Source: Naegleria gruberi
Taxonomy: Eukaryota
Assembly: GCA_000004985.1 (NCBI GenBank)
Contig: GG738875.1
Length of the DNA stretch: 64,000 nucleotides
Strand: one strand, 5' to 3'
This document shows, piece by piece, positions 1,689-44,540 of this stretch (the stretch's first letter is position 1; every line of letters starts with the position of its first letter). The position numbers were made by a program, and so were the translations under genes. The notes under the pieces were generated by a model. That model made no database searches. It had not been told where the DNA came from and saw only the letters and a list, made by a program, of their open reading frames with translations.

Positions 1689-4600
1689 TTATTGTTGCTC
1701 CAAATAGTTATCAGTGGATGGTTTCTTAATACGTAGAGTGTCTAACGAAGTGGAAGAATCATCAGGGACGAGACCGACAATAGAAGCTCCCACAGACATG
1801 AGTAATCGATTTTCAAAATCATTGAATTTTTGTTTTAACAGATAGGTCATCATTAAACCCTTTCCTTTCACTTCGACTTCTCTTGGTTCGTAATCATAGA
1901 GGTCGTGCACTCTTTCATAGGTTGAACGTGAAATTTGTATTCTTCCTGGTAAACTTGTTGATTCCATTCTTGAAGCAGTCTGTGAAATATGATTAATGAA
2001 AACTAACAACATTACACAACTTACATTTACAGCATCTCCCCACAAATCAAAAGCAAACTTTTTGGTTCCAATAACACCTGCAACAACACTGCCTGTGTGA
2101 ATACCCACACGGATATTGAGTTGATTGGAATATAAATTTCCAGTACTTTCATTGTAATCTTTCAATACCTTAAACATGTCAATGGCAAAATTAAGAGTTC
2201 TTTCAGGGTGGTCACTTTCTTTAGCGTCCAAATATAATCCTCCAGCAACAAAGTATGCATCTCCAATGGTCTTGATTTTTTCCAATTTGTAAATATCACA
2301 CAATGCGTCAAATCCATTTACAATGTAATTTAACATTTGAACAAGCTCAGTTGGAGAGCAATATGAAGATCGTGAGGTGAACCCAACCATATCACTGAAT
2401 AGACATGTAACATCATCAAATTTTTCTGAAATTGTTGTCTCTCCAGCTTTCAATCTATTAGCAACAGCCACTATTAAGGTTGTTCGAATTGACTATAAAA
2501 TTCAAACGACTTACCTGGCAAGATATTTAACAATAAATTCTCAGATTTCTTCTTTTCAATATTCAACAGCTCAACCGATTTCTTCTCTGATGTAATATCT
2601 CTAAAGATGGCTGTGAAAATCTTCTTTTGTTTCTTCTCCATCATTACCTCATTCTGCTGGACTTCAATTTGGGCAACTGAAATACTCATCACTATTGGGA
2701 AGGATTTACTTGCATCGAGAGTATTTGTCGAGATGGCATGTCCTCTCTTGGCATTCAACTCGACAACTTCTCCAGATGATTCAGATTGTTGAAGGTAGCT
2801 CAACTTTTCTTCCAACTTTTCCCTTTCATTTGTTGAAAAGAGAGAAGTTACAGGCGTACCGATTACTTCACTCGATGATTTGATACCCATCATTCTCAGT
2901 GCAGAAGTATTGATCATTTCAACAGTTCCTTGTGCATCAAATTGAATAACTCCTTCAATGGCAGTTGACAAGATTGCAGTCAAATTGTCAACTCTTTCTC
3001 TAGAATCAACTAAAAACTTCTTTTGTTTGGATCTTCTAAACATGTTTAAAGTGGAATACAACTGGTCATTCAGGATATATCGACTCACTTTCTGATTATT
3101 ATCCAAAACTTCCCAAGAGACATGATTAAACATTTGTCTCAATTGATAAATTTCTTGTTCATATCTAATAATTGAAGAGTATCCAATATAAGCGCATATT
3201 AAAAAAATGACAAAGAATATGACTGAAATTGAAATGGTTAACGAAAGATTCGACAGCTTGGAAAATGTTGTAATGAAAATTTCCAATGAAGTCTTGACTT
3301 TGTAATTGAATGAAGCGGCCATTTCCCAAGAAACCGAATGAAACTGTGGTAATAAAACCTGAGGAATGTATGTCTTTCTATAAGCCAATTGATTATATAA
3401 GTCAATATACACAATAAACAATTGTAATAATTGAGTAACCGACAAACATTCGAAATATTGTCGATTATTGGTAATTGTGTTATTTTCCAAAAACGATGAA
3501 AGGTCGGTAATGTTTCCACTATTTTGAAATCGAGAACAATTAGCTGGTAATATCAACTTGTCTATGTCATCACTCACCCCCAGAAGTGAAAAGTATCCTT
3601 TTGAACTATCCCCGTACAAGTAAGATTTCATATAGGTTTCAACTTCTCTCGAATGGGTCGTAATGTCCTTGTGAATTCTATCAATTTCACAGGAAAGTCC
3701 TCCCCACAATGGTTTCCAATCATTCATGAGAAGTAATTCTCCCAACTTGAACATGATTCTATTGAAAATTACCTTAATCTTTGAAGCTTGATACAATTTG
3801 TTTAGAGCCATATCTTGATTCTTCAGATTATTGTTTGTATCTACCAAGTATAAAATGATGGCCAATAAAGCAGTTAAGAAAATGATAATCACAAGCGAGA
3901 TGAGTGTTCTGGTTGGAGTGAAATAAGTGCCAATAGCAAGCGAGGTTCTATCAGAGTCAATGTTATGGGAAACTTTGGAGGTGGATGCCTTTTCAAGTGT
4001 GTGATAAATCTTTCCTGATTCTTCCTTTGCTAATCCAAAGAATAAGTGAGCTATACGTTGTTGTTTTTTGAAATAGTCAATTAGGACAACTAGAGTAATC
4101 AAACCAAGTATAAAGAAAACTCCAATCGATGCACCCATGACATACAAGAATAAATTCAGAATATTGCTCACCTTGTTGGATTTAGCTGTCAAGACATCAG
4201 AACAGACATTTTCTAAAGCATAGGCATTGTACTTTCTATTTTGCCAGAAAAAGAGAAACGACGGATTGTCCAATGTTTGTTTCACTTGAGTTTCTGTAAA
4301 ATCCTTTACTCTGTCAACATGAACATCCATCAATTCGACAATTTCCTTGATAGTTACATTTCTCTTTTCATAATTCATTGTTGAATTTTCATTAAAAGTT
4401 GTGGAGATTACTGGCATGAAAATTTCAGTTTCCTGACCTTCCCACAAATCCAAATAACCAGTCTTGTCAGTTTCTGACATTTGTTCCAAGAATGATTTGA
4501 GGTAACCCTTGTAAGTTTTCAATTTTTCTTGTTGAGTTTTTTTATAAGTTCTGGAAAAAGTCGAATTGTCCTTATCGAAATAGTAATGCCTTTGTAAAAG

Positions 4601-7159
4601 ACGAATTTCACATAGAATCAAGAAAGGATAAGGAGAGGTAGCACATAAATTCTGATAAGCAGAAAGTTCTGGATTGCTTCCAGAGCTGAGACTTCCTGTA
4701 AAAGAGTTTGAAATCATGACAGCAGCAATTAATCCACCAATCACAACCAACAAGCTCACCCATGGAAAGAACGAGGTAAAAATAATTGTAGTAGTCAAGT
4801 GACTCCTTCTTTGAATACTCTTAGTATAAGTATCTTGTTGTTTCTTGCTGAATTGCTCTTCATCATGTTGATTTTCAAATTCACAAATGTCATCAAATTT
4901 GATCTTTTTCTCTTCCTCCAATTGACTCATGCTTTCAGATACAATGATAGCTGGCACTACCCTAGAACGTCTCTTCTTTAAAGATCTCTCAGAGAAAGTT
5001 TCCAATATAGTTGGTTGTTTTGATTTGAGTTTTTGACTTTCTTCCTCTTCAATCACTGCTACAAGTTGAAGTATTTCCTTGCTCTTTTCCTTATCAAAGA
5101 TGAATTCTTCAACGAACATGGCATAGGGACGAAGTGCTGATTTGTTGTAGGAATGGAGAGCAACCAAACTTTCAAATTTGGATTTACAATGAGAGGTCAA
5201 TTTGGTAATTTTTCTATTAATGATGATGAGCTCATTCAAACTATTTTCATTATTAGTAATAACTACTTTCCAGAAGCTTTTGTGAAATTCTCTCAATTTG
5301 GATTGTTTCTTTGACAAATGTTGTAAAGTTTTTGAAATTGACTTTTCAGAATCAGCTGAAATATTCAAACTTGCCATAAGTTGAGTTTCAATTTCAGATC
5401 TTCTCACAGAGCCAACATATTTTTCAAATATTGATGGCTTGCACATGTACATTCTCTTGAGTAAATACAGTGCAATATTCAAATTTGTCTTGGCATGATG
5501 TTGTGTTTGATCCAATTTATGATATCTGACATAATTGACAATTGCTAAACAAATAGATGCAGAGCTGTATTCACTTTTGTGACGAATTGATCCTCTAATG
5601 ATGGCACTTATAATTCTACATTTGGTCGAAGGTGGATTATCGTTGTTCTCATCAACAATAGTTCTCTGTCGTGAATTGTATTCTGATGAACAGAATCGAA
5701 TGGCCATTTCCAAGTTTGCTTCACCAATTTCTTCTAATAAATCAGGTGTGAGAGCAATTTCACTTGTATTACCAGAATCTAATAGAGGTGAGCATATTTT
5801 CTTCACTACTTTTGTGGCTCTTCTTGTATAAATGTCCATAATTGTAACACCAACTGTTAAGAATATTAAGAAACCACCAATGGCAGCTCCCCAATAAATT
5901 ACACCATTCGTGGACAGGACATCTACTGTGTTAGTGTCAATATTTACAATTGAACATGTCAAGCTCACAATATTCTGTCCAACTATTCCAAACATGATGC
6001 CGGCCATGTAAGAATTCTCAGATCTAACATTGAATGGAACAATAATGAAAATCAAAACAGCCAATATAAGGAATAGAAAGAGTGAAAATGATGGAAACAG
6101 GTATGGAAATGATGAATAATTTGGAATCATTTGAGAGTACCAATAGAACAGCATCATGACCAAATTGACCACCGAAATGAACACTGGACTTTTCGATGAG
6201 AAGAATGAAGCTCTCCTCTTCAGCAAACCATGCCCACTCCCTGATGTTGAGTACAGTAATGAATCTGTCTCTATAACTCCGAATAGGAACAATAAGACAA
6301 TCAACACTTGTGGCCAAATGTGAATAACAGAGAGGGCAGCAAACACAGCATTCATTGGTCCCCAACATTCAACTTGTGAATAATCCCTCAAGTAGAATGT
6401 ACCTCCATCACTTCCAGAGGAATTTATCTTCTCCGTATAATCACAACTCCAAAAAGAACTGAACAAGTGAGTGATTGGCAAGTTAAGGATGAAAAGGGCA
6501 ATTACCAGGAATCGGCTTAATTGTTTAGACCTACGCTTAAATTTCACAAATCCAACCAGATATCCCTTGTATTCAATATAGGTGTGAAGTATCAGAAACC
6601 AGTGGATAACAAACACTATCACCGACAAGACAACCACAGCCACATGAGGAATAAAGTGGAATCCAAACGTGATGAGTGTTTTGAAAAAGTAGAGATTAAT
6701 GTCGTGTGCAATTTGACCCCACTGCACAAATGGAATGAATCCTAGTGCAATTAACTGCAACGGAAGTAAAATTCCATGTGTGAAGAGTGGTAACAAGTGT
6801 GGAATGATTGATTTACCCAATTGATGATGTAAAGTACTAGAATTTGAAAATTTAAAAGTTTGAATGAGGGAGGTGATTCTCTCCTCGACTCTTGGCTTGG
6901 AAGATATCAGCAAATCTGAAGAAAAGGACATTGAAGTATCGGCAAGTGATATAGTATCATCCTGTTGATAACTAGCAGTTCCAGTATTATTATTAATCAT
7001 ATTAGCATTTGATGAAGAACTATTGAAGGGAGTAAAATCATTATTTGAATCCACAAGTAATTGATTTGAAGATGAGGAGGAAACTAGTGCAGCAGTAGCA
7101 GCAGTTGCATTAGTGGTTGAGAATGAACTACTTGAACGATGCATCGCTTTAAACTCCAA
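1689..7159 (-). CDS. Multi-pass membrane class III adenylate/guanylate cyclase with a PAS domain; three exons, approximately complement(2515..7159), complement(2026..2470), complement(1689..1980)
   Basis: The large ORF has an S-rich N-terminus, many hydrophobic helices, then a PAS-like segment (LTAILSTAIEGVIQFDAQGTVEMINTSALRMMGI) and a coiled linker. It ends at ...LLNILPG followed immediately by gtaagt. A 44-nt intron (about 2471-2514) joins it in phase to VAVANRLKAGETTISEKFDDVTCLFSDMVGFT, which matches the guanylyl-cyclase-type linker plus the cyclase-domain start. Cyclase motifs are present: KIKTIGDAYFVAGG and DLWGDAVNV//ASRMESTS. The ASRMES motif is interrupted by a 45-nt in-frame GTAAGT...CAG intron at about 1981-2025. 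There is no histidine-kinase H-box or HATPase motif. Confidence 0.75.
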
Positions 7160-7430: not shown

Positions 7431-7916
7431 ATGGAGAGGGAAAAGCTATTAAGGGAATCTGAGATGTTGAAAAATCTAGCTTTCAAAATTTCTGCTGATT
7501 ACTACGAACGGGAATACTATGGATTCAATTTCATTGTAAATTCTCAAATTTTTCCAATAAAGTTTAATCTCCATGATCAGACTCTATTTGGACCTGTACG
7601 AACTTCAGTTTATTTCAGTTTATTTCATATTATATTGGATATTGTTTCATGTTTCCTCTTAGATTCATTCTTCAACAGTTGTGGTAAATACAATCCAATC
7701 GATCTCCACTTGGAAGCACACAAGTTCATCTCTATTTGGAAGAGAGCAGGATTACAACCTGTCCGTCACTTGTCTGACACAGAAACCAAATCTCAAAAAA
7801 ATGTCTTTTGGTTGGAAGTTCTACCACTTTTGTTGTGCCGTCATGTCTTTCATCATATGCTTCATCCTTCCGTTCTTTATTGTGGTTTGGGAACAGTTTG
7901 TTTGTGCATTCTATAA
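7431..7916 (+). CDS. hypothetical small protein; the overlapping 7681..8085 ORF is an alternative
   Basis: Two overlapping ORFs with hydrophobic stretches lie between the cyclase gene and tRNA-Ala. There is no recognisable motif, and a cagtttattt x2 mini-repeat sits inside. The gene model is uncertain. Confidence 0.15.
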   Translation: MEREKLLRESEMLKNLAFKISADYYEREYYGFNFIVNSQIFPIKFNLHDQTLFGPVRTSVYFSLFHIILDIVSCFLLDSFFNSCGKYNPIDLHLEAHKFISIWKRAGLQPVRHLSDTETKSQKNVFWLEVLPLLLCRHVFHHMLHPSVLYCGLGTVCLCIL

Positions 7917-8119: not shown

Positions 8120-8155
8120 TGGAGTCATAGGGAATCGAACCCTAGACCTTCTGCA

Positions 8156-8186
<31 letters not shown>

Positions 8187-8192
8187 AACCCC
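8120..8192 (-). tRNA. tRNA-Ala (anticodon UGC)
   Basis: The reverse complement reads GGGGTTATAGCTCAGTTGGTAGAGCGTCTGCTTTGCATGCAGAAGGTCTAGGGTTCGATTCCCTATGACTCCA. It has a 7-bp acceptor stem with a G3:U70 wobble, which is the alanine identity element. Anticodon loop is TTTGCAT and the T-loop is GGTTCGATTCC. A T5 run follows on the minus strand, consistent with a Pol III terminator. No CCA is encoded. Confidence 0.9.
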
Positions 8193-17080: not shown

Positions 17081-17161
17081 GTTGAGGTGGCCGAGTGGTT
17101 AAGGCGCCAGCCTGCTAAGTTGGTGGAGTAATCCGCGTGGGTTCGAATCCCATCCTCAACG
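17081..17161 (+). tRNA. tRNA-Ser (anticodon GCU)
   Basis: GTTGAGGTGGCCGAGTGGTTAAGGCGCCAGCCTGCTAAGTTGG...GGTTCGAATCCCATCCTCAACG. Anticodon loop is CTGCTAA, there is a long variable arm typical of type II tRNAs, and a GTGGNNTAAGGC D-loop. A T-rich stretch lies downstream. Confidence 0.9.
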
Positions 17162-31200: not shown

Positions 31201-34200
31201 TTACATGACAAGGCAGTTCAATAATCCTTGCCTTTGAGGTGGCTGTGGTTGCGGATTGTTTGGTTGTGGTTGCTGTAGTTGTTGTGGTTGTGGAGGAATA
31301 ATGAGAGGCCTTATTCTGGCTGGCACTGGTTGAGGGTTTGGTTGCGGAATTAATTGAAGAGGTATTTGATTATTCACAGGAGGATTTACTTGTCTTGGAC
31401 GAATAATTTCAGGAGGAACATCAAAAGTAAGGCAAGAACCAGCTCTAAAATGTGCATAAGTTGCTTGTCCTGTTGCAAATCCTTTCAAACATAACCAACA
31501 AAAATGTTGTCCGCAATAACAACAAGCTAAAATAAGTGAACAAGTGAGCTCACTAATAAATAGATTCAAAAACTTACTCATATGATTGCATCCTTCACTC
31601 TTTTCAATTCGTTGGGAACAACTTGGGCATGGCTTTGTTTTGGTATTCATCCACTCTCTTGTTTTGTCCTCGTCTCCACATTTTTGTCCCTTGTGTGATT
31701 TCTTTTCACATTCCTTACAAAAACTCAAGTTACAGGTTTGGCAAATAATGTCTGAACCATCAATTCGACAAACAGATCCACAATTTTTTGGGCAATACTT
31801 GTATGATTCTGGATTTTCTAGCAAAAAGTCCTCTAATGCTTTTGTATATGTCTTCTCTTGTTTGGTTTCGAGGTACATCAATATTTCAGAAATGGATAAA
31901 TCCATTTCACAACATGAACAAACAAAGCTATTTGGATTTTGAATTTGAAAACGAAAACAATCTTTGCAAATCTCGTGGTTACATCCTATTGTTCTGAAAG
32001 GATTTGTCATTCTCTCAAAACAAATTGGGCAATCGTCATCAGTGTGTTCAACGTTATGGTTTTGTTCATAATTTTCCATCAATTCAGTCACATATTGTTG
32101 AATAGCATGTTGGTCCTTTTCGTTACCATCCACTATTAATTCCTTGGTTTTGACATTTAAAGAAATATCACAATTAGCAAACTGTGTTTTAAGCTCTTGG
32201 AATGGTTTTCCTGCATTTCCTGTTATGGATTTTAAATATTTGAGATGAATCGTTAAAGTTTTAGAGTGACCTTCCACAAGCTGCATGATTTCCTCTTTGG
32301 CGTTGTGTTTGTCATCAATCAATCCAAAAATTTCTATTGTTCTGGTCTTGGAGTTTATAGAAATAAATACTTGATTCCTGTTTTCAATTTGGTCAAGTTG
32401 CTTTCTTTTTCTAGAAGCGTATTGGATTGTTTGATGAGTGAGGTGTAATGATAATGGCTTCACAAGGGCAACAACATTCTTTTTGGCTTCATTAAAATCT
32501 TCCAGGTTAGCAGATTGAATCGAAATTTCAGTTTTGTAATTTTCTGCATTTTTGCGCGAAGTATTATATTTGATTTTTGCCTTACAGTTATCAATCAAGC
32601 ATTGTAATTCAAATTTCAAAAGTTCAGTTACTTCTGTTGGTACTGTAACTGAATCTCTGTGAATAGAATTGGCCCATAAAATTGCTCCCATAAATTTTGT
32701 GGAATTTAGAGCTTGTGCAGCGCTTTTAGCATCTTTTTGATCAGTAAAACAAACCAAAGCTTCTCCAAATTGTTTATACGTATCTATATTCAAAATGTCC
32801 AGAAATTCAAGACTCTGGAATGATTGAACTTTAGAAAGTAATACTCCTTGGATTAAATCATTCTCTACTACAACTGGACGTCTTAGAATAGAGACGAAAT
32901 GATAATCAATATGTCTATTATCCAGTAATACTTTAACAAATTTTGCATCGATATGGTCGTAAATATTGCGTATCTCAAGAGTGTCCTTGTTCTTCGTTTT
33001 TTTAATCTGGAATCTGAGTCCAGCTGGTCCTAATTGTGATGAAAATATTCTATCATGCGTAATATTATTAATAGTGGCAGAATTATTCCCATTTTTAAAA
33101 CCAATCAAGCAATATCCGTTATTTGGGCCTATATTCCATTTTAATCGAACCAACGCAGATTCATTACTACTTTTGGTGTTAAATAGAACAGGAGTTAATT
33201 TGTAAGTTTCTTTGAATTTGTGATAAACTGTAGTTGCAACAGAAAAGTTTGTAAATACTACGTAGCCACTAGCAAATGAATCATTAGGTAAAGAGGAATA
33301 AACACGTGCATCAAGTGTATGGTATGGTAGAAACAAGTTTCTTAAAGTATCGTCATCACAACCTAATGGTAGATTATCGACCTGAAGTTTAGTAAACTCG
33401 TTTGGGAATATTAATCCTTTCACTTTACAACCACTTGATACCATGATTCGTAATCCACTCGAATCATCATCCAATCCATTTTCAATTTCCAATTCTAAAA
33501 TTTGAGATAAAGCCCTCTTTTTTGCTATTTCTATTACTTCCTTAATTTGAGAAATAATGTTAAATCTTTCGCCTTGATCACAGTAGACCTTAATTGAAGA
33601 ATCTGTTGAATCAATTTCTATTACATGCCCTAACTGTCTTTCAACTTCTTCAATGAATTCTGTGTTTCTAAATTTTAAATCTTCACTAACTATTGAAGGT
33701 AATTTCACTCTGAGTTCTTCTTTAACTTTACTGACAATCATATTGGTTTCTAGTTGTGGATAAAAATGAAGTATTTCCTTCAAATCAATTGGTGTAATAT
33801 TCCTCATATAGAGCTTGTCAGTTCTAACTAGATCTGAAAATAGTATGAAAGGTTTAGGATCTCCCAAAAATTGATGAGATGAGTTATGTATAAATGCTCG
33901 TTGCTTTAGAGAGGGAATGTAATACACTTTTGTCATATTTGGCAAATATCCGTCAAAATAGGCAAGGTTTTGATATTGGCTTTCAATTATACTTTCTTTC
34001 AAAAGTTGTTCTTTTGAAATACATTCCTTTCTAATTATTCTTTTCTTTTTAAAGAAATTGATTTTGTTCTTAAAATCCTTCAAGTTCATTTCAGCATTCT
34101 TTAGGTATTGAACATTAATATTATTTTTTAAGGACCATTCCTCTTTGTTGGACTGTTGTGAATACTCTTGAAATATTTGTAACAGAGAAAACAAATCTCC

Positions 34201-36411
34201 ACCATCATTATGAAATAAACTCTTGCTCAACAATTTTGCTTGTGATTTTTTAAACAAAATATCAGATATACTCATCATTGAAACAATAATAACCATTAAA
34301 TCAGCTACACCCTTCAAATTTGCTTGAATAATCATTCTAGACAGTGTTGGTTCTGTCTGTAACTCACAAGCCATAGTGCCAAACTCAGTGATGACACCTT
34401 CATGAACAAAGCCAAGCTTTTCCAGAGATCCAACCTCTTTAGTGATTCTTTCTATGGATGGCATTTCTAATAGTTCAAAAGCGTTTATATCGGTAACACC
34501 ACATGATAATATTTGCAAAATAGATATACCAAGATGACTTCTCATAATTTCAGCTTCTGAAGCTAATTTCATTCTCTGATATTCTACTTGTGGATATAAT
34601 CTATAACATATTCCAGAACTATTTCTTCCTACTCTTCCTTTCCTTTGCAGAGCACAGGATTGAGAGATGGAAACAGTTTTAAGTATTGACATATTCCTGT
34701 CATTATCATAGAATTTTTGTCTCATTAATCCAGAGTCTATAACTATTCTTAATGAAGGAATAGTAATGGATGTTTCTGCAACATTTGTCGAAAATATAAT
34801 CTTTCTCATAGACTTTGATTGATCGAAAATCTTTTTCAATTCAAAACTATCAATTTTTCCATGTAGAGCAATTATTTGGCAAGACGTTCCAAGGCTCTTT
34901 TTAGCCATTTTGCAACATTTGGTAACATCTTCTCTAGATGCAAGAAAAACCAGAATATCTCCTTCATGTAGATTATTCTTGACAATGTCAGTAACCTTTC
35001 TAGTTGCCTGTTCACAAGTATTTGCTTCTCTTGAATGAGAGAAATACTCCACAACAGGGTAACTTTGATGTTCTAGTTTCTTGATTGGGCAGTTATCAAA
35101 AAACATTGAAAACAAATCTTCATTGATTGTTGCAGAGGATATCAAGACTTTTAAGGGATTGTTCAAAGCTCTTCTTCTCTTTACACAATCCTTTAATAAT
35201 GAAAGTAGAATATCGGTATAAATTGATCTTTCATGCGCTTCATCAACAATAATAATAGAATAACTTAATAGGAGTTGATCATTCTGATACTCATTCAATA
35301 AACAACGATCTGTGACAAAATTAATAGATACTCTGTTGTTCCTTTTCCTTTTCTCGCCAAGCTTGCATGAAACAATAGATTTATCTCTCAATTCTTCAGA
35401 AACTCTATTAGCAAGAGTGATACAGGTCAATTTTCTGGGTTGTGTGCATGCTATTGATTTATAGCCATGTTCTAAAAGATACTGAGGAATTTGGGTACTC
35501 TTTCCAGCACCAGTAGAACAACTACAAATAACAACATCATTCTGGTCCAATAATTCCAAAATTTCGTTCCTTATCGAATAAATTGGGAGTCTGTTGGTGG
35601 TAATCCTTCCACATTCAATCTCTGTGGCCTTTAGCTTTTGCACCATACTGGTGGTTGATTGGAGAATTAGCTTCATTCTTGCGGAGAATGTTTTGCATTG
35701 ATTCTCTATCATTTTCAAATCATTAATTAATATTTGTACCTTTTCCAAGTACTTTTGATAGTCAAACGTTTTAACAAGATGATGTTTGCTTTTGTTAATT
35801 TCCTCTTCCTTTTCCTTTAGCACATTCAAAGCCTGTACTATCTTGGTATCAATCAAATTCTTTAATTTTTCATTACTATCTTGTTTGACGACACGTGTAG
35901 TTTTTTGCTGTTGTGGTTGTATAGTACTACTATTTTGTGCTGCATTTTCCTGTTGTTTTAATTTTGGTTGTTGAACAAGCTTTGCTTTCTTATTTTTCTT
36001 TTTTTTTAAATTATTTTCTAAAAGTTGTTTTGGTGGGTTTTCTTGTGAAACATATTGTTGTTTGTTTTCAACTTGGTTAATGATGGTTGGTGAAGACAAT
36101 TTGCTTGTGAATGCTCCATTTTGTTGGTGATTTGAAGTTGCAAACTTTTTTCTTCTCTCCTCCTTTTTGATTTGATTGGAAGGAACTAGAGTTGATGTGT
36201 TTTTGCTGAGTTTGCTATTATTTGGATTATTCGATGATGTTATTTTGGAGGATGATGGAGTAGTGTCCTCATTATCATTGGTACTTTGTTTGATTGGTTC
36301 TGTAACTACTTTGTCTATTACCTTGACAAACAACTTTCGTTGTTGCGGTTTCTTCTTCTTCTTGATTGCTGGATCATGCTCCACATTCACAGGGCTTGGT
36401 TTTGTATCCAT
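31201..36411 (-). CDS. DEAH-box helicase fused to a C-terminal RING-between-RING (RBR) E3 ligase module
   Basis: The 1736-aa protein has a low-complexity K/N/Q-rich N-terminus. Helicase motifs are CSCSTGAGKST (Walker A) and IIVDEAHERS (DEAH), plus the HA2/OB region. The C-terminus carries CPICFERM...CNHEICKDCF (RING1), an IBR Cys/His cluster and CPSCSQRIEKSEGCNHMSK (RING2-like). Confidence 0.8.
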   Translation of the reverse strand: MDTKPSPVNVEHDPAIKKKKKPQQRKLFVKVIDKVVTEPIKQSTNDNEDTTPSSSKITSSNNPNNSKLSKNTSTLVPSNQIKKEERRKKFATSNHQQNGAFTSKLSSPTIINQVENKQQYVSQENPPKQLLENNLKKKKNKKAKLVQQPKLKQQENAAQNSSTIQPQQQKTTRVVKQDSNEKLKNLIDTKIVQALNVLKEKEEEINKSKHHLVKTFDYQKYLEKVQILINDLKMIENQCKTFSARMKLILQSTTSMVQKLKATEIECGRITTNRLPIYSIRNEILELLDQNDVVICSCSTGAGKSTQIPQYLLEHGYKSIACTQPRKLTCITLANRVSEELRDKSIVSCKLGEKRKRNNRVSINFVTDRCLLNEYQNDQLLLSYSIIIVDEAHERSIYTDILLSLLKDCVKRRRALNNPLKVLISSATINEDLFSMFFDNCPIKKLEHQSYPVVEYFSHSREANTCEQATRKVTDIVKNNLHEGDILVFLASREDVTKCCKMAKKSLGTSCQIIALHGKIDSFELKKIFDQSKSMRKIIFSTNVAETSITIPSLRIVIDSGLMRQKFYDNDRNMSILKTVSISQSCALQRKGRVGRNSSGICYRLYPQVEYQRMKLASEAEIMRSHLGISILQILSCGVTDINAFELLEMPSIERITKEVGSLEKLGFVHEGVITEFGTMACELQTEPTLSRMIIQANLKGVADLMVIIVSMMSISDILFKKSQAKLLSKSLFHNDGGDLFSLLQIFQEYSQQSNKEEWSLKNNINVQYLKNAEMNLKDFKNKINFFKKKRIIRKECISKEQLLKESIIESQYQNLAYFDGYLPNMTKVYYIPSLKQRAFIHNSSHQFLGDPKPFILFSDLVRTDKLYMRNITPIDLKEILHFYPQLETNMIVSKVKEELRVKLPSIVSEDLKFRNTEFIEEVERQLGHVIEIDSTDSSIKVYCDQGERFNIISQIKEVIEIAKKRALSQILELEIENGLDDDSSGLRIMVSSGCKVKGLIFPNEFTKLQVDNLPLGCDDDTLRNLFLPYHTLDARVYSSLPNDSFASGYVVFTNFSVATTVYHKFKETYKLTPVLFNTKSSNESALVRLKWNIGPNNGYCLIGFKNGNNSATINNITHDRIFSSQLGPAGLRFQIKKTKNKDTLEIRNIYDHIDAKFVKVLLDNRHIDYHFVSILRRPVVVENDLIQGVLLSKVQSFQSLEFLDILNIDTYKQFGEALVCFTDQKDAKSAAQALNSTKFMGAILWANSIHRDSVTVPTEVTELLKFELQCLIDNCKAKIKYNTSRKNAENYKTEISIQSANLEDFNEAKKNVVALVKPLSLHLTHQTIQYASRKRKQLDQIENRNQVFISINSKTRTIEIFGLIDDKHNAKEEIMQLVEGHSKTLTIHLKYLKSITGNAGKPFQELKTQFANCDISLNVKTKELIVDGNEKDQHAIQQYVTELMENYEQNHNVEHTDDDCPICFERMTNPFRTIGCNHEICKDCFRFQIQNPNSFVCSCCEMDLSISEILMYLETKQEKTYTKALEDFLLENPESYKYCPKNCGSVCRIDGSDIICQTCNLSFCKECEKKSHKGQKCGDEDKTREWMNTKTKPCPSCSQRIEKSEGCNHMSKFLNLFISELTCSLILACCYCGQHFCWLCLKGFATGQATYAHFRAGSCLTFDVPPEIIRPRQVNPPVNNQIPLQLIPQPNPQPVPARIRPLIIPPQPQQLQQPQPNNPQPQPPQRQGLLNCLVM

Positions 36412-37422: not shown

Positions 37423-39129
37423 ATGATATCAACAAAAAGTGAATCATCACACTTACAAGACATAACAATTGAACAACCATTGAAAAACAAGACAAACCTT
37501 CCTTGTTACATTATCAAGAATTTTCTCACACCGAAAGAATGTTCGGAATTTATTGAAAAAGCTGTGAAAATTGGATTTGATTTGGCCTCTCATGATTACC
37601 CACCTTCCTACAGAAATAATGAGAGAATTATAATGGATGACGAAGAGTTGGCAGAGAAAATGACCAAGAAATTGAAACCAATGCTTGATAGTTTGAATTT
37701 AGTGGAATTTGAAAAGGATGGATTGGAATGTGAATTGAAAAGTGTCAATTCTAGATTTAGATTGTGTAGATATCAAGAAGGACAAGAATTTAGAATTCAT
37801 CAAGATGGTGTTCATTACAAATCAAAGTTTGTCAAGTCAATTTTGACATTTATGATTTATTTGAATGAAGAATTTGATAATGGACATACAATTTTCTTCA
37901 AGTCTGGACCTTCCTCAAACCCTCCAGAAGAAATGGGAAAATACAAACCTCAATGTGGTGATTTGATAGTATTTGATCATGAATTGTGGCATTCTGGAGA
38001 AATTGTCAATAATGGTATCAAATATGTCATGAGGAGTGATATCATTTATGATACTATCCCTATTAGTTTTGGAAATAATTCAATCGGAACAATGGAATCA
38101 TTGGAAAATTCGAACAATTGGAATAATTCTCACAATGGATATGTTTGGAAATTAATCAAGGTTGGAAAAGATGATTCCTTAATTGCTAGCGGAGGAAGAG
38201 ACACCACTATAAATATTTTCAACGAATCACTGCAAATCCAATTCAAACTTGAGGGTCACCAAAAATCAGTGCTTGGCTTATCGAAAATGGCAAATAATCA
38301 AATGGTTTCCATTTCCAGAGACCGATCAATTAAGATTTGGGACCTGGAAACGAGAGAATGTATTTTCACCAAAGAGCAAGCTCACAATCATACAGGATTA
38401 TGTGTAGAAGCGGATCCTTTTGATTCTTCAATAATTGCTTCTGGCTCTGCTGATTGTATCATCAAACTTTGGAAATTTGTTGATGGAAAATTAGAATTGT
38501 CCAAACAATTTAACGGCCACAATGGATGGATTTGGTCTTTGAAATGGATTACAATTGAAGGAGAGAGGATGCTCTTGTCTGCATCTGAGGATGGATCCAT
38601 ACGAGTCTGGAATAGTGAAACTGGCTCGTGTCACATTATTGATCAATTACAAAATCCTCTTAGGTGCCTTACTACTTTTAATTATCCAAATTCACAAATG
38701 GACACCATTATTTGTCTTGGAGACAATGAAGGCAATCTCTATCTCTATTATGTAAAAGGGGGTTTTAGTAATTTTAGTACGAAACGAACAGAATTCAAGA
38801 ACTTGCACAGGGCCTCAATAAGAACTGTTAAATTTATTAGTTCTCACATGATTGTAACAGGCTCTGAAGACTATTCTGTAATGTTATGGAAACTGAAGCA
38901 TGAGCTTTCCTCAATACCTCAACTACATCATGTCTATACCTTCAATCACAATAATTTTGTCACAGACTGTCTCTCACAATTTCACAATGAACAACAAGCA
39001 CAAGAGGAGGATAATCAATTCGCCTCCTTCTTCACTTCCTCCTATGATGGCGCCATTAAGAAACACCAAGTATCACTCTCATCGACAAGTCTTTCTTTAA
39101 CTTTGCTTGGCATGATTGGTACCAATTAA
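37423..39129 (+). CDS. 2-oxoglutarate/Fe(II) prolyl-4-hydroxylase-like domain fused to WD40 repeats
   Basis: The N-terminal domain has the P4H-type facial triad RIHQDG (HxD)...ELWHSGE (distal His)...KYVMRSDIIY (2OG-binding basic residue) and no signal peptide. The C-terminal half has six or more WD-like repeats (SGGRDTTINIF, SISRDRSIKIWDL, SGSADCIIKLW, SASEDGSIRVW, TGSEDYSVMLW). Confidence 0.7.
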   Translation: MISTKSESSHLQDITIEQPLKNKTNLPCYIIKNFLTPKECSEFIEKAVKIGFDLASHDYPPSYRNNERIIMDDEELAEKMTKKLKPMLDSLNLVEFEKDGLECELKSVNSRFRLCRYQEGQEFRIHQDGVHYKSKFVKSILTFMIYLNEEFDNGHTIFFKSGPSSNPPEEMGKYKPQCGDLIVFDHELWHSGEIVNNGIKYVMRSDIIYDTIPISFGNNSIGTMESLENSNNWNNSHNGYVWKLIKVGKDDSLIASGGRDTTINIFNESLQIQFKLEGHQKSVLGLSKMANNQMVSISRDRSIKIWDLETRECIFTKEQAHNHTGLCVEADPFDSSIIASGSADCIIKLWKFVDGKLELSKQFNGHNGWIWSLKWITIEGERMLLSASEDGSIRVWNSETGSCHIIDQLQNPLRCLTTFNYPNSQMDTIICLGDNEGNLYLYYVKGGFSNFSTKRTEFKNLHRASIRTVKFISSHMIVTGSEDYSVMLWKLKHELSSIPQLHHVYTFNHNNFVTDCLSQFHNEQQAQEEDNQFASFFTSSYDGAIKKHQVSLSSTSLSLTLLGMIGTN

Positions 39130-39292: not shown

Positions 39293-41867
39293 ATGCCTTG
39301 CGGAAAGGAAGTAAATCATGTTCGGATAGAGCCCTCTAATATTATTGTTTGTAATCATCAGATGATGAAGGAGAATGGACCATTACCATCAACATCAACA
39401 TCATCATGTAAATTAAGGCACCATAAGGATGTACTACTGCTGCATCCAAAGAGGAACAAAACAAGAAAAGTTTCCAAGTGTAAAGTAGAAACAACACGTA
39501 GTGTTGATTGTGATGATTCTTCGTCTTCAGCATCACACTCGGTACCATCAATATTAAATGTGGTACTAAGGTTCAAAAGCCTATTCTTCCTCATATGCTT
39601 CTTCTTCTTCTTCTCACATGATACATGCCTTGTTGGAAAGGTAGAGGCGATAACATGCCCAAACGGAGTGGATAATCTTCACATACAAACAAATTGGGTG
39701 ATGCAAGCACAATATGGTGCCTTTCAAGCAGCAGTGGAGATGGGATTTTATGATAATGAATGTTTGAATGTTGTTATCAAATTGGGTATGTTGTACAAGA
39801 AATGTTGAACATTGTTGACATGATCTTACATCTATAACAATGTTAAATATTTTATGATAATGTTATCATTGTATTATGTACAACGATGATGTGGATCAAC
39901 ATGCCTCAAATTATATGATAAAAAAGGTGGACCTAATGCTGATCCAATAGCAGTAATTAAAAGTGGTGAAGCTCAATTGGGAGTTTTCTTATATTCGAGA
40001 GTTTTGGTCAATAGAGAGCTTGGCTTGGACTTTGTAAATATTTTCCAACATTATTCGAGAGGTGGATTGACAATGGTTTCGAGGACAGAATCTGAGATAT
40101 CAACCTTCCCACAATTCAAAGGGAAGAATATTGGATATTGGGTTGGTAATGATTACTCCCTGCTTGCCACAATGAAGAAATATAATATAGATACCAAAAC
40201 GGAAATGAGCTTGAGATTGCAATCTTTCTCAATTTTACCATTGTTGGAACAACCTGAAAGGTAGGTTAATATTTTCTTGACTTTTTACCTTTAATTTTTT
40301 TCTAAACATTTTACTATTAAGATATGATGTTATTATGGCAATGGGATATGATCAATTGGGAAATCTTTTGATGACTGCAAAGAAAGATTCAAGTGGAAAA
40401 CCGACTGATGAATTGTATTCGATTGGAAGAGATTTAAATATCTTGGATTTCAATGCAGAACAAACTGCCATGTTGGAAGATTGTATTGTTATGAACAAGG
40501 CTTGGTATGACACCAATCCAATCAAAAATAAGGACATTCTAGTTCGTTTCTTGAAAGCAACTATTAAGGGATTGATTACCTGTAGAGATTATGAAACCAA
40601 ATGTTTCAATTTAATGCCAGATAAGAGTGCACATCAAGTTTGGTCAGTGAGAGAAGTCAACAAATTAATTTGGCCTGCTAATTTAAATGGAGTAGGATGG
40701 ATGAATACTACCTTATTGAACAGAACTATAGACGTTGCTTACAAATTTGGAGTAATTAATTCATTAGCTTCAGCTAATGGATCTTATGATTCTCAATTTG
40801 TTGAAGAAGCCATGCGACAATTTAGAAAAGGACTAGCGGATGGAAGTATTTCAGATAAGTATTCTGATTTAGTAGCACCAAACTATGGTCCAACCTCACA
40901 CGAATTCTGCTATGACGTTACAACTGATACTGTTTTCATTTGTAATGGAAAACTTGATACCCTTCGTGTAACTGTACTTGTTGTAGGAATAGTATTGGGA
41001 AGTGTGATGGTAATGTCTGCCGTTTTGGGACTGTTGGCCATTGCGTTTGGCTTTACTCTCTTGAAGAAACGAAGAGAATTGCTAATGTTTGCCCCTACAG
41101 AAAAGGATGAATCATTCCCAATTGTTTTCACTGATATTCAACAATCAACAAAATTATGGAATGCCTTCCCAGAGGAAATGAAAATTGCTCTGGAACTTCA
41201 CAATCAATTGCTGCGGAGATTATTAGATGAATATGAAGGATATGAATGTAAATCACAAGGAGATGGATTGATGGTCGCTTTCAGAGATCCAATCAATGCA
41301 TTGAAATGGATGTTGAGAAGTCAAGTGGAATTAATGAAATTGGATTGGCCAGAACATTTAATGGATCAAGAACATGCAAAATTTGAGGTTGATAATGTTG
41401 GTAAAATGATATTCAGAGGATTGAGAGTGAGAATGGGAGGTGGAATGTGTAAACCAGATGTAAAAAGGGACAAAATTGGACGGATTGATTATCTAGGTAA
41501 TGATGTGAATCAAGCTGCAAGAGTTGGAAGCATTGCAGTGGGTGGCCAAATTGTCATTCATCAAAATTTGTATGAGGAAGTTTCACACAAACTTACGGAC
41601 CTCATCATTAGAGGAGAAACAAAAGCTCCACCGTTCAATTTTCTAGGTTTCTACATGCTTAAAGGAATTGACGGAGTTCATGCTCTGTATGACATATTGC
41701 CAGCAAGTATTCACTTTAGAAAATCTCTCTTTCCACCAATTTTCGATGAAGCAAAAGGACTTCTAATTAAGGAACTTGAAGAAACAGCAATCATTGCCAC
41801 AACCACAGATATAATGGACGAACCAGAAGCTCAAGGTTCAGGAGAGAAATCTAGCAATGAAATTTAA
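39293..41867 (+). CDS. receptor-type class III nucleotidyl (adenylate-like) cyclase A: cytosolic leader, TM1, NMT1/SsuA/THI5-like solute-binding ectodomain, TM2, cyclase domain; exons approximately 39293..39785, 39927..40260, 40322..41867
   Basis: Exon 1 ends ...NECLNVVIKLG|gtatgt. Exon 2 runs GPNADPIAVIKSGEAQLGVF...LLEQPER and ends AG|gtaggt. Exon 3 begins after ttaag with YDVIMAMGYDQLGN. The ectodomain has periplasmic binding protein (PBP) type-2 NMT1-like blocks (WVMQAQYGAFQAA, FPQFKGKNIGYWVG). A hydrophobic TM follows (LRVTVLVVGIVLGSVMVMSAVLGLLAIAFGF), then the cyclase domain: FTDIQQSTKLWN...CKSQGDGLMVAFRDP...GNDVNQAARVGSIAVGGQIVI. A Lys at the base-recognition position suggests ATP. There is no in-frame ATG immediately before the first hydrophobic segment, so the start at 39293 gives a roughly 100-aa cytosolic leader. 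Confidence 0.7.
39640..40700 (+). repeat. paralogous segment shared with 42410..43400; exons near-identical, introns diverged
   Basis: The last ~150 nt of exon 1, all of exon 2 and the first ~330 nt of exon 3 are about 90% or more identical at DNA level between cyclase genes A and B, with short divergent patches. Introns 1 and 2 differ in length and sequence (141 vs 75 nt; 61 vs 52 nt). Confidence 0.7.
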
Positions 41868-42241: not shown

Positions 42242-44540
42242 ATGATGATGGCAATATTCAATTCAAAAAGAAAGAATACATATCTGCTGCATCAAATAGG
42301 GCTTGTTGATGATATAAAGAAAATGAAATTATATTCTTTTCATCAAGGAAAGACCTTATTTACAACCTTCTTATTTATTGTACTACTTTTAATTGTGATG
42401 ATGATCAATTGGGTAGAGGCCATTACTTGTCCTAATGGTGTTGATAATATAAATATACAAACAAATTGGGTGATGCAGGCACAGTATGGTGCCTTTCAAG
42501 CAGCTGTTGAGATGGGATTTTATGATAATGAATGTTTGAATGTTGTTATCAAATTGGGTATGTTGTCATGTGTATTGTACTATTAACCTTGTTGTTACTG
42601 ATCTGGTGTTGGTATCTTCTCTTATAAAATAGGTGGACCTAATGCTGATCCAATAGCAGTAATTAAAAGTGGTGAAGCTCAATTGGGAGTTTTCCTATAT
42701 TCGAGAGTTTTGGTCAATAGAGAGCTGGGCTTAGATTTTGTAAATATTTTCCAACATTATTCGAGAGGTGGATTGACAATGGTTTCGAGGACAGAATCAG
42801 GGATTTCCTCTTTTCCACAGTTTAAGGGGAAGAATATTGGTTATTGGGTTGGTAATGATTACTCCTTATTAGCAACCATTAAGAAACATGGAATGGATCC
42901 AAAAACAGAAATGAGCTTGAGATTGCAATCTTTCTCAATTTTACCATTGTTGGAACAACCTGAAAGGTAGGTGTCTTTTAACTTGGATTTGTTGTTTTAT
43001 TAATGCTAAACTATTAAGATATGATGTTATTATGGCAATGGGATATGATCAATTGGGAAATCTTTTGATGACTGCAAAGAAAGATTCAAATGGAAAATCA
43101 ACTGAAGAATTGTATTCGATTGGAAGAGATTTAAATATCTTGGATTTCAATGCAGAACAGACTGCCATGTTGGAAGATTGTATTGTGATGAACAAGGCAT
43201 GGTATGACACTAATCCAATCAAAAATAAGGACATTCTAGTTCGTTTCTTGAAAGCCACTATTAAGGGATTGATTACATGTAGAGATTATGAAACAAAATG
43301 TTTCAATTTAATGCCAGATAAGAGTGCACATCAAGTTTGGTCAGTGAGAGAAGTCAACAAATTAATTTGGCCTGCCAATTTAAATGGAATTGGTTCATTG
43401 AATGTTTCTCGTATCAATCAAACAATTGATATTGCTTACAAATTTGGAGTTATTAAATCGTTAGCTCCAGCCAATGGATCCTACGATTCTCAATTTGTGG
43501 ACGAAGCTCTTAAGCACTTCAAAACAGGACTAGCCGATGGAACAGTCTTGAATACCTATTCTGATTTAGTAGCACCAAATTATGGTCCAACCTCACACGA
43601 ATTTTGCTATGATCTAACAACTGAAACAGTTTTTATTTGTAATGGAAAAGTTAACTATTCAAATGTTATCATCGCTGTCATTGTTTCAGTTTTAGGATGT
43701 GCCCTACTGGTTGCTGCAATTATTGGTGCCTGTGCATTCATTGTTTGGAGAAGGCACGTGGCAAGAAGGAACAGAATTCTCGTCTATGCACCAACAGAAA
43801 AGGATGAATCATTCCCAATTGTTTTCACTGATATTCAACAATCAACAAAATTATGGAATGCAGCTCCTGATGATATGAAAATTGCTCTCGAGCTTCACAA
43901 TCAACTACTAAGAAAATTGCTTGCAGAGTACGAGGGATATGAATGTAAATCACAAGGAGATGGATTGATGGTCGCATTCAGAGATCCAATCAATGCTTTG
44001 AAATGGATGTTGAGAAGTCAGGTGGAATTGATGAAATTAGATTGGCCAGAACATTTAATGGATCAAGAACATGCAAAATTCGAAGTTGACAATGTTGGTA
44101 AAATGATATTCAGAGGATTGAGAGTGAGAATGGGAGGTGGAATGTGTAAACCAGATGTCAAAAAAGATTCCATGGATAAAGTTGACTATTTCGGCAATGA
44201 TGTGAATCAAGCTGCAAGAGTTGGAAGTATTGCAGTGGGTGGCCAAATTGTCATTCACGAGAATTTATATCACGAAATCATGACAAGACTTTCTGAGCTA
44301 ATATTCAGAGGTGAAACCAAGTCACCTGTCGTTAACTTCCTTGGGCCATACTGTCTTAAAGGAATTGAAGGTGTGCATGTCTTGTATGATATTCTACCAG
44401 CTAGCATTCAAAACAGAAAGACATTATTCCCAACTGAATGTGATGAAGCTAAGGGAACATTGTGGAAACCAAGTGACTCGGATGGAAATACTCCACAACA
44501 ATTAGTCGATCAATTAGAAAGCAAACGATTTGAAAAATAA
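42242..44540 (+). CDS. receptor-type class III nucleotidyl cyclase B, tandem paralog of A; exons approximately 42242..42557, 42633..42966, 43019..44540
   Basis: Same three-exon structure as A: donor gtatgt after KLG, exon 2 GPNADP...QPER, donor gtaggt, exon 3 YDVIMAMGYDQLGN.... The N-terminal signal/anchor is MKLYSFHQGKTLFTTFLFIVLLLIVMMINWVEA. The TM is IIAVIVSVLGCALLVAAIIGACAFIVW. The cyclase domain is near-identical to A, and the C-terminal tail differs. Confidence 0.7.

What the first reader, a model, noticed from the sequence alone, without database searches (positions are those of the whole stretch)
1689..7159. Third cyclase in the window: multi-TM, PAS, guanylyl-cyclase-type linker and cyclase, split by two micro-introns
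The ORF track splits this into a 1561-aa ORF and a 260-aa ORF. The junction LLNILPG|gtaagt...ag|VAVANRLKAGETTISEKFDDVTCLFSDMVGFT rebuilds the conserved signalling-helix/linker that precedes metazoan-type cyclase domains. A second 45-nt in-frame intron interrupts the ASRMES motif. Together with the tandem receptor cyclases 32 kb away, there are three class III cyclase genes within 45 kb, a local enrichment that fits a lineage with an expanded cyclase repertoire. PAS-coupled cyclases with a large polytopic N-terminal membrane region are uncommon.
Basis: partly seen in the sequence, partly recalled or inferred. Interest (0 to 1): 0.55.

Follow-up and report, generated by a model that had tools for sequence, protein, structure and literature searches.

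The report
Annotated Naegleria PAS-linked membrane adenylyl cyclase
This is a real three-exon gene for a large membrane protein that most likely makes cyclic AMP, but the same gene model is already in the public Naegleria gruberi annotation and it is one of many similar genes in these amoebae, so it is ordinary.

Summary
On the minus strand, exons 7144..2515, 2470..2025 and 1979..1689 are joined by two GTAAGT...AG introns of 44 and 45 nt. They encode a 1788-aa protein. That protein is 100% identical over its full length to Naegleria gruberi XP_002675982.1 (NAEGRDRAFT_68946, UniProt D2VJ85), so the gene model is already public.

From N to C terminus it has about 7-9 membrane helices, a cytosolic TPR_TmcB region, and four more membrane helices flanking two roughly 180-200-aa loops. 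Then come a PAS domain, a 22-residue signalling helix with a cyclase transducer element, and one class III cyclase domain.

All six catalytic residues are present. The specificity pair is Lys1610/Asp1685, so it is predicted to be an adenylyl cyclase, not a guanylyl cyclase.

The architecture is not rare in this lineage. At least 23 clusters at 50% identity share it, from N. gruberi, N. fowleri, N. lovaniensis and Willaertia magna. The two tandem cyclases 32 kb away belong to an unrelated receptor type, and three cyclases in one window is near chance in a genome with at least 81 of them.

Interest is low.

The parts
1689..7144 (-). Complete coding region from ATG to TAA of NAEGRDRAFT_68946, 1788 aa, three exons
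   Evidence: Spliced translation; 100% identity and 100% coverage to XP_002675982.1
2515..7144 (-). Exon 1: residues 1-1543 plus the first base of codon 1544
2471..2514 (-). Intron 1: 44 nt, phase 1, GTAAGT...TAG. It holds the in-frame TAA that ends the 1561-aa ORF
   Evidence: The junction restores ILPxxVAxxLK with no indel against 23 paralogues
2025..2470 (-). Exon 2: residues 1544-1692
1980..2024 (-). Intron 2: 45 nt, phase 0, GTAAGT...CAG, between GDAVN and TASRMES
   Evidence: Removing it raises the Pfam cyclase score by 15.5 bits and matches the family consensus without a gap
1689..1979 (-). Exon 3: residues 1693-1788 plus the stop codon
5825..6796 (-). First membrane block, residues 117-440, about 7-9 predicted transmembrane helices
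   Evidence: Hydropathy peaks; helices with pLDDT 80-95 in the AlphaFold model
5033..5332 (-). TPR_TmcB (PF25474) match, residues 605-704, inside a helical-repeat region spanning roughly residues 467-709
   Evidence: 39 bits, cut-off 27. Found in 27 of 28 family members. Only weak TPR-protein fold hits
3161..4798 (-). Second membrane block, residues 783-1328: four transmembrane helices around two loops of about 180 and 200 aa (812-993 and 1099-1301). The loops carry N-glycosylation sequons and conserved Cys, and are predicted to be mostly helical
2594..2980 (-). PAS domain, residues 1389-1517, ending in the DIT motif
   Evidence: Pfam PAS 32.4 bits against a cut-off of 22.6. PAS in 27 of 28 paralogues. 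Model shows a beta-beta-alpha-alpha-alpha-beta-beta-beta fold with pLDDT 84-92
2448..2593 (-). Signalling helix (residues 1518-1541) and short cyclase transducer element helix (1544-1551). Intron 1 sits at the kink between them
   Evidence: Helices in the model. The DIT-to-ILP spacer is exactly 22 residues in 23 of 23 paralogues. The CTE concept is from PMC5995499
1833..2429 (-). Class III cyclase catalytic domain, residues 1558-1741, interrupted by intron 2. Catalytic residues: D1570 (2393-2391), K1610 (2273-2271), D1614 (2261-2259), D1685 (2048-2046), N1692 (2027-2025), R1696 (1970-1968)

Best explanation
This is the N. gruberi gene NAEGRDRAFT_68946. It is a functional three-exon gene for a polytopic membrane adenylyl cyclase.

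Shown: the exon structure, the domain order, and a single catalytic domain that carries both metal-binding Asp residues, the ATP-specifying Lys/Asp pair and the transition-state Asn/Arg.

Inferred: because class III cyclases form their active sites at a dimer interface, and this domain has every needed residue, the protein should act as a homodimer with two symmetric active sites that convert ATP to cAMP. Regulation most likely runs from the TmcB-like membrane module, whose two large helical loops probably face outside the cell and may bind a ligand, and/or from the cytosolic PAS domain. The signal would pass through a rigid 22-residue coiled-coil helix and the cyclase transducer element to the catalytic dimer, as in soluble guanylyl cyclase and the mycobacterial Cya/Rv1625c enzymes. 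The input signal is unknown.
For: - The gene model is identical to RefSeq.
- Both introns have canonical GTAAGT...AG signals, and GTAAGT occurs only at the two donor sites in this gene.
- The spliced junctions match 23 paralogues with no indel, and splicing intron 2 adds 15.5 bits to the Pfam cyclase score.
- D1570, K1610, D1614, D1685, N1692 and R1696 are all present. They align to the metal-binding Asp residues of the AC9 C1 domain and to K...D...N...R of AC9 C2.
- The best sequence matches among solved structures are adenylyl cyclases: AC9, AC5, AC8 and Rv1625c at 175-228 bits. Guanylyl cyclases score 140 bits or less.
- The best fold match is the Cya soluble domain, 5O5K/5O5L (target TM-score 0.87-0.91, rmsd about 2 Å, 40-42% identity). 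Soluble guanylyl cyclase alpha aligns over about 413 columns covering PAS, coiled coil and cyclase.
- PAS scores above the Pfam cut-off and is modelled confidently.
- The PAS-to-cyclase linker length is invariant across the family.
- Exon 1 is under strong purifying selection against its closest relative: dN/dS 0.086 over 1149 codons.
- Family-wide conservation of K/D and of the domain order.
Against: - There is no transcript or enzyme-activity evidence here; no RNA-seq or EST data could be consulted.
- The dN/dS estimate covers only exon 1, because the related contig ends before the cyclase domain.
- Membrane topology rests on hydropathy and a single AlphaFold model (pTM 0.51).
- Specificity predicted from the K/D pair is reliable for canonical class III enzymes but not infallible.
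Confidence: 0.85

Rival explanations
1. It is a guanylyl cyclase, as the first reader's wording about a guanylyl-cyclase-type linker hints.
For: The PAS, coiled-coil and cyclase arrangement aligns structurally with soluble guanylyl cyclase subunits over about 413 columns. Pfam's family name is Guanylate_cyc. The ASRMES motif is typical of guanylyl cyclases and class IIIa adenylyl cyclases alike.
Against: The specificity positions are Lys1610 and Asp1685. Guanylyl cyclases carry Glu and Cys (or Ser/Thr/Ala) there. The pair aligns with K and D of AC9 C2 and is conserved across the family. Adenylyl cyclases outscore guanylyl cyclases by 35-90 bits.
Confidence: 0.06
2. The membrane module is only an anchor or targeting device, for example to the flagellum or the contractile vacuole. 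In that case the PAS domain, sensing a cytosolic ligand or redox state, or protein partners of the TPR region, is the sole regulatory input.
For: PAS domains often bind small cytosolic ligands. The TPR_TmcB region is a typical protein-interaction scaffold. A TmcB-related protein is listed in the Chlamydomonas ciliary methylome (PMC11244166). No solved sensor structure matched significantly by Foldseek.
Confidence: 0.3
3. It is a pseudogene or mis-joined model. The real product would stop at 2474, giving a TmcB-PAS protein without a cyclase, and the downstream cyclase ORF would be a dead remnant.
For: Without splicing, an in-frame TAA ends the long ORF. No transcript evidence was available here.
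Against: Canonical donor and acceptor sites sit exactly where the frame and the motifs are restored. All six catalytic residues are intact. The cyclase domain scores E 1e-56. Paralogues carry similar 43-66-nt GTAAGT introns in the same region. 23 of 28 aligned family sequences (this protein and 27 relatives) carry the cyclase.
Confidence: 0.03

Closest known systems
Heterolobosean TmcB-PAS-cyclase paralogues, e.g. N. gruberi NAEGRDRAFT_74371, 72081, 81665, 71437, 71278 and XP_002676156.1; N. fowleri FDP41_011611 and 007173; N. lovaniensis C9374_003576; Willaertia magna ABK040_006139
   Same: They are collinear over the whole length, with the same domain order, the same 22-residue PAS-to-cyclase linker, and the same K/D specificity pair.
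   Different: Identity is only 20-31%. No orthologue above 50% identity turned up in N. fowleri or N. lovaniensis. The only close relative is an 80%-identical contig from sequencing run SRR25266747. Intron positions differ between paralogues.
Mycobacterial membrane adenylyl cyclase Cya / Rv1625c (PDB 5O5K, 5O5L, 7YZK, 4P2F), class IIIa
   Same: A single catalytic domain with all six residues, acting as a homodimer, with a helical CTE ahead of the cyclase. 40-43% identity, rmsd about 2-3 Å, target TM-score 0.84-0.91 for the soluble-domain and catalytic-domain structures 5O5K, 5O5L and 4P2F.
   Different: Rv1625c has a 6-TM anchor joined directly to the CTE. It has no PAS, no TPR region and no large loops.
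Soluble guanylyl cyclase (PDB 6JT0, 7D9R, 8HBE)
   Same: PAS, coiled-coil signalling helix, then cyclase. The structural alignment spans about 410 columns.
   Different: sGC is a soluble heterodimer with a haem H-NOX sensor and guanylyl-cyclase specificity residues. This protein is membrane-bound, homodimer-competent and K/D (adenylyl-cyclase) type.
Mammalian membrane adenylyl cyclases (AC9, AC5, AC8)
   Same: These are the best sequence matches to the catalytic domain, at 199-228 bits. The domain aligns to both C1 and C2.
   Different: The mammalian enzymes are pseudo-heterodimers with two 6-TM blocks and two complementary half-site domains. This protein has one complete domain and an unrelated membrane module.
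Dictyostelium TmcB (tiny macrocysts protein B), the namesake of Pfam PF25474
   Same: It shares the TPR_TmcB region above Pfam's cut-off.
   Different: Only the 100-aa TPR match was tested. Whether the membrane parts are homologous, and what TmcB does, could not be established. The literature search found nothing useful.

Membership tests
Class III nucleotidyl cyclase (Pfam PF00211) | Catalytic domain matching the family profile above the curated cut-off | tested here: met
   186.7 bits against a cut-off of 21.9, covering profile positions 3-182 of 183. 191.8 bits for the isolated spliced domain.
Class III nucleotidyl cyclase (Pfam PF00211) | Two metal-binding Asp plus transition-state Asn and Arg in one domain, which makes a homodimer possible | tested here: met
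   D1570, D1614, N1692 and R1696, aligned to AC9 C1 and C2.
Adenylyl cyclase (ATP-specific) | Lys and Asp at the two purine-specifying positions | tested here: met
   K1610 in KIKTIGD and D1685 in FDLWGD, aligned with EKIKTIG and YDIWGD of AC9 C2. Conserved in paralogues. Enzyme activity was not tested.
Guanylyl cyclase (GTP-specific) | Glu and Cys (or Ser/Thr/Ala) at the same two positions | tested here: not met
   The residues are Lys and Asp.
Class IIIa/b cyclases with a cyclase transducer element | A conserved helical element (LLxxILPxxVAxxLK) directly before the catalytic core, continuous with a coiled-coil linker | tested here: met
   LLLNILPVAVANRLKAGE at 1537-1554. Modelled as a 24-residue helix plus a short helix. 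It superposes on the Cya soluble domain, which includes a CTE. The concept is from PMC5995499. The formal IIIa versus IIIb signature was not checked.
PAS domain | Profile match above the curated cut-off, and the five-stranded antiparallel sheet with flanking helices | tested here: met
   PF00989 at 32.4 bits against 22.6. 27 of 28 relatives match PAS_9. The model shows a beta-beta-alpha-alpha-alpha-beta-beta-beta pattern with pLDDT 84-92. No LOV-type NCRFLQ motif was seen on reading the family consensus. Cofactor unknown.
TmcB-like proteins (Pfam PF25474 TPR_TmcB) | TPR_TmcB profile match above the cut-off | tested here: met
   39 bits against 27. 27 of 28 relatives match.
TmcB-like proteins (Pfam PF25474 TPR_TmcB) | Homology of the membrane regions to Dictyostelium TmcB itself | not tested
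   No Dictyostelium sequence was retrieved.
Four-helix-bundle extracellular sensor domains (4HB_MCP, NIT, TorS-like) | An ectodomain forming an antiparallel helical bundle continuous with the transmembrane helices, with specific similarity to known sensors | tested here: inconclusive
Metazoan-type 12-TM adenylyl cyclase | Two 6-TM blocks, each followed by a complementary catalytic domain (C1, C2) | tested here: not met
   There is only one cyclase domain, at the C terminus, and the membrane module has a different layout.

The most novel reading that the evidence does not exclude
The TmcB-like module, a polytopic block followed by four helices that hold two conserved helical loops, may be a true extracellular ligand sensor. 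It would drive cAMP synthesis through PAS and a fixed-length helix. The Naegleria/Willaertia family would then be a lineage-specific set of receptor adenylyl cyclases, and would give the uncharacterised TmcB protein family its first functional handle.
Probability: 0.3. Interest if true: 0.4.

Novelty: already known. Interest (0 to 1): 0.15.

Why it matters
It matters little as a discovery. The identical gene model and its Pfam domains are already in RefSeq, UniProt and EukProt, and the cyclase expansion in Naegleria is published (PMC9928731).

Three things here may be useful.
- The gene is assigned as an adenylyl cyclase rather than a guanylyl cyclase.
- The same TmcB-PAS-cyclase architecture with an invariant 22-residue linker is shared by at least 23 heterolobosean protein clusters.
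- Some RefSeq paralogue models are probably truncated at a missed micro-intron.

No member of this family has been studied experimentally as far as my searches could show, so the input signal remains open.

Tried and rejected
- The third word-indexed homologue search, using the family alignment A1, returned only the earlier hits and no paralogues. It was wasted.
- The word-indexed search with the N-terminal 1295 aa found only the protein itself and one 80% relative. The exhaustive HMMER search was needed to find the family.
- Exact-match contig look-ups for the N. gruberi proteins P0001 and P0053 found nothing on record.
- The 80% relative's contig, L001, ends before the cyclase domain. No orthologous intron comparison was possible, and dN/dS covers exon 1 only.
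- The afdb50 fold library was not available.
- Literature searches for TmcB and for 'tiny macrocysts' gave nothing on function. The N. gruberi genome paper (Cell 2010) is not held, so its cyclase count is not cited.
- I considered a prominin-like topology for the TM8-TM11 block. Neither fold search supported it, so I dropped it.
- A promoter/terminator scan was irrelevant for a eukaryote.
- A local cyclase gene cluster was rejected. The tandem pair shares only 29% identity over 114 aa with this cyclase domain and has a different architecture.
Full report
**What is in the sequence**

The window is AT-rich, about 34% G+C. On the minus strand there is a 1561-aa ORF at 2474..7159 and a 260-aa ORF at 1689..2471. 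Reading the minus strand shows ...TTG CCA G|GTAAGT...TAATAG|TG GCT GTT GCT..., and further down ...GCT GTA AAT|GTAAGT...TTTCACAG|ACT GCT TCA AGA ATG GAA TCA.

- Intron 1 is 2514..2471: 44 nt, phase 1. It contains the TAA that closes the long ORF.
- Intron 2 is 2024..1980: 45 nt, phase 0, with no stop codon.

Joining 7144..2515, 2470..2025 and 1979..1689 gives one uninterrupted frame of 1788 codons starting at the first ATG. GTAAGT occurs exactly twice in the gene, both times at these donor sites.

**Identity**

The spliced protein is 100% identical over 100% of its length to a 1788-aa N. gruberi protein. Its accessions are XP_002675982.1, EFC43238.1 and UniProt D2VJ85, locus NAEGRDRAFT_68946, named only 'predicted protein'. 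The window is therefore N. gruberi DNA, and the exact three-exon model is already public, with Pfam hits PF00211, PF00989/PF13426 and PF25474 precomputed.

**Support for the introns beyond the annotation**

- Splicing intron 2 raises the Pfam cyclase score from 176.3 to 191.8 bits.
- In an alignment with 27 relatives, both junctions (ILP|xxVAxRLK and GDxxN|xASRMES) match the family consensus with no insertion or deletion.
- Paralogues on metagenome and SRA contigs carry similar GTAAGT...AG micro-introns of about 43-66 nt in the same stretch. They sit at different codons: FAYD|LWG in L003 and TKK|FAYD in L004. Such introns are typical of this gene family.
- No transcript data could be consulted.

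**Domain anatomy**

Pfam finds Guanylate_cyc at residues 1558-1741 (E 3.9e-55), PAS at 1389-1517 (32.4 bits, cut-off 22.6) and TPR_TmcB at 605-704 (39 bits, cut-off 27).

Hydropathy shows a block of about seven or more transmembrane helices at 117-440. Single helices follow at about 793-811, 1004-1022, 1080-1098 and 1302-1320. If PAS and the cyclase are cytosolic, the loops at 812-993 and 1099-1301 face outside the cell. They carry seven N-x-S/T sequons and conserved cysteines.

An AlphaFold model of residues 117-1316, built from a 37-sequence alignment, has mean pLDDT 77 and pTM 0.51 and is almost entirely helical.
- Foldseek against the PDB gave nothing below E 0.02, only TPR proteins.

A second model, of residues 1328-1788, has mean pLDDT 78. 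It shows a PAS fold at 1398-1516, one 24-residue helix at 1518-1541, a short helix at 1544-1551 and the cyclase core. Intron 1 falls at the kink between the two helices.

**Adenylyl or guanylyl cyclase**

Alignment to solved structures and residue numbering give:
- metal-binding Asp1570 (FSDMVGFT) and Asp1614 (TIGD);
- specificity residues Lys1610 (KIKTIG) and Asp1685 (FDLWG);
- transition-state residues Asn1692 and Arg1696 (VNTASRMES).

K and D align with the K and D of AC9 C2. Guanylyl cyclases carry E and C at these positions (established knowledge of class III cyclases). Adenylyl cyclases score highest: AC9 228 bits, AC5 203, AC8 199, Rv1625c about 175. Guanylyl cyclases reach 140 bits or less.

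By fold, the best match is the mycobacterial Cya soluble domain 5O5K/5O5L, with target TM-score 0.87-0.91 and 40-42% identity. Soluble guanylyl cyclase alpha aligns over about 413 columns spanning PAS, coiled coil and cyclase.

The enzyme is therefore predicted to be a homodimeric class III adenylyl cyclase whose PAS, helix and cyclase arrangement resembles that of soluble guanylyl cyclase. The 'linker' is the cyclase transducer element, which is described for many class III cyclases, adenylyl as well as guanylyl (PMC5995499).

**The family**

An exhaustive HMMER search with residues 117-1316 found 76 representatives (50%-identity clusters) at E up to 1e-3 and 46 at E up to 1e-10. Many are 1400-1800 aa long and collinear over the whole query. 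Twenty-seven long hits were aligned with this protein, giving 28 sequences. Of these 28, 27 have PAS and TPR_TmcB and 23 have the cyclase domain.

Named members come from N. gruberi (at least six further loci), N. fowleri, N. lovaniensis and Willaertia magna.

The spacer between the PAS DIT motif and the ILP of the transducer element is exactly 22 residues in all 23 sequences where both motifs are found. That is what a rigid coiled-coil transmitter predicts.

This gene is a divergent member. Its best paralogue is 28-30% identical, and no orthologue above 50% identity appeared in the other sequenced Naegleria species. The only close relative is an 80%-identical partial gene from sequencing run SRR25266747. 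Against that relative, dN/dS is 0.086 over 1149 codons, with synonymous sites near saturation, so the gene is under purifying selection.

**The 'three cyclases in 45 kb' point**

Two more cyclase genes exist at 40335..41867 and 43032..44540. They are tandem duplicates of each other. Each has upstream exons encoding an NMT1/THI5-like (periplasmic-binding-type) ectodomain, then one transmembrane helix, then a cyclase. Their cyclase domain shares only 29% identity over 114 residues with the one studied here, so there is no common local duplication.

Naegleria is reported to have at least 81 cyclases (PMC9928731). With a genome of about 41 Mb (my recollection, not checked), a 64-kb window expects about 0.1 cyclase loci. 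Among roughly 640 such windows, a few with two independent loci are expected by chance (my inference). The enrichment is real for the lineage but not remarkable for this locus.

**Mechanism**

Shown: gene structure, domain order, catalytic residues, family conservation, linker invariance.

Inferred: homodimerisation, with two symmetric ATP sites formed across the dimer interface. Signal input would come from the membrane module and/or PAS. Transmission would run through the 22-residue helix and the transducer element to the catalytic dimer. The input signal is unknown. The rival views are listed separately: a guanylyl cyclase, a membrane part that is only an anchor, and a pseudogene.

**Verdict**

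However, the gene is already annotated and belongs to a sizeable lineage-specific family, and the side claims (guanylyl-cyclase-type linker, rarity, local enrichment) do not add novelty. Interest is low.

Noticed in passing
window 39293-41867 and 42242-44540 (+): Two tandem multi-exon receptor-type cyclase genes about 2.7 kb apart. Each has a signal-peptide-like start, an NMT1/THI5-like (periplasmic-binding-type) ectodomain (Pfam 43.8 bits), one transmembrane helix and a cyclase domain (62-67 bits). The layout recalls trypanosomatid receptor adenylyl cyclases.
   Followed up: partly
L003 about 7748-7791; L004 about 7828-7893; window 1980-2024: Paralogues of the family have short GTAAGT introns in the same conserved cyclase stretch, but at different codons: FAYD|LWG, TKK|FAYD and GDAVN|TASRMES. 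This points to intron gain or sliding within the family.
   Followed up: partly
N. gruberi paralogues NAEGRDRAFT_81665 (P0049) and NAEGRDRAFT_71278 (P0053): Their public protein models end at ...FAYVCF and ...FAYDLWG, inside the cyclase domain and just where relatives have a micro-intron. The last exon, which carries the Asn/Arg catalytic residues, is probably missing from the annotation.
   Followed up: no
L002 (ENA ERZ17292904), protein P0029: An intronless 1623-aa metagenomic protein with the same TmcB-TPR, PAS and cyclase order, at 26% identity. Its cyclase reads FDILGPDICLAAMMEH, so it lacks the transition-state Asn and Arg. It may be a catalytically dead or heterodimer-only variant from an unidentified protist.
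   Followed up: no
L001 (Logan SRR25266747), protein P0002: The only close relative, at 80% amino-acid identity. It diverges abruptly after residue about 1160 and ends 98 nt before the contig end. A frameshift, a species-specific intron or an assembly error are all possible. The source organism is unknown.
   Followed up: no
window 8120-8192 (-) and 17081-17161 (+): tRNA-Ala(TGC) and tRNA-Ser(GCT) genes. The tRNA-Ala lies about 1 kb upstream of the cyclase gene's start.
   Followed up: no
window 31201-36411 (-): A 1736-aa ORF combining a DEAH-box helicase (DEAD, Helicase_C, HA2, OB_NTP_bind) with RRM, RING and IBR domains. This is a DEAH11/RBR-type helicase and ubiquitin-ligase fusion.
   Followed up: no
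window 37423-39129 (+): A 568-aa ORF with an N-terminal 2OG-Fe(II) oxygenase domain fused to WD40 repeats.
   Followed up: no
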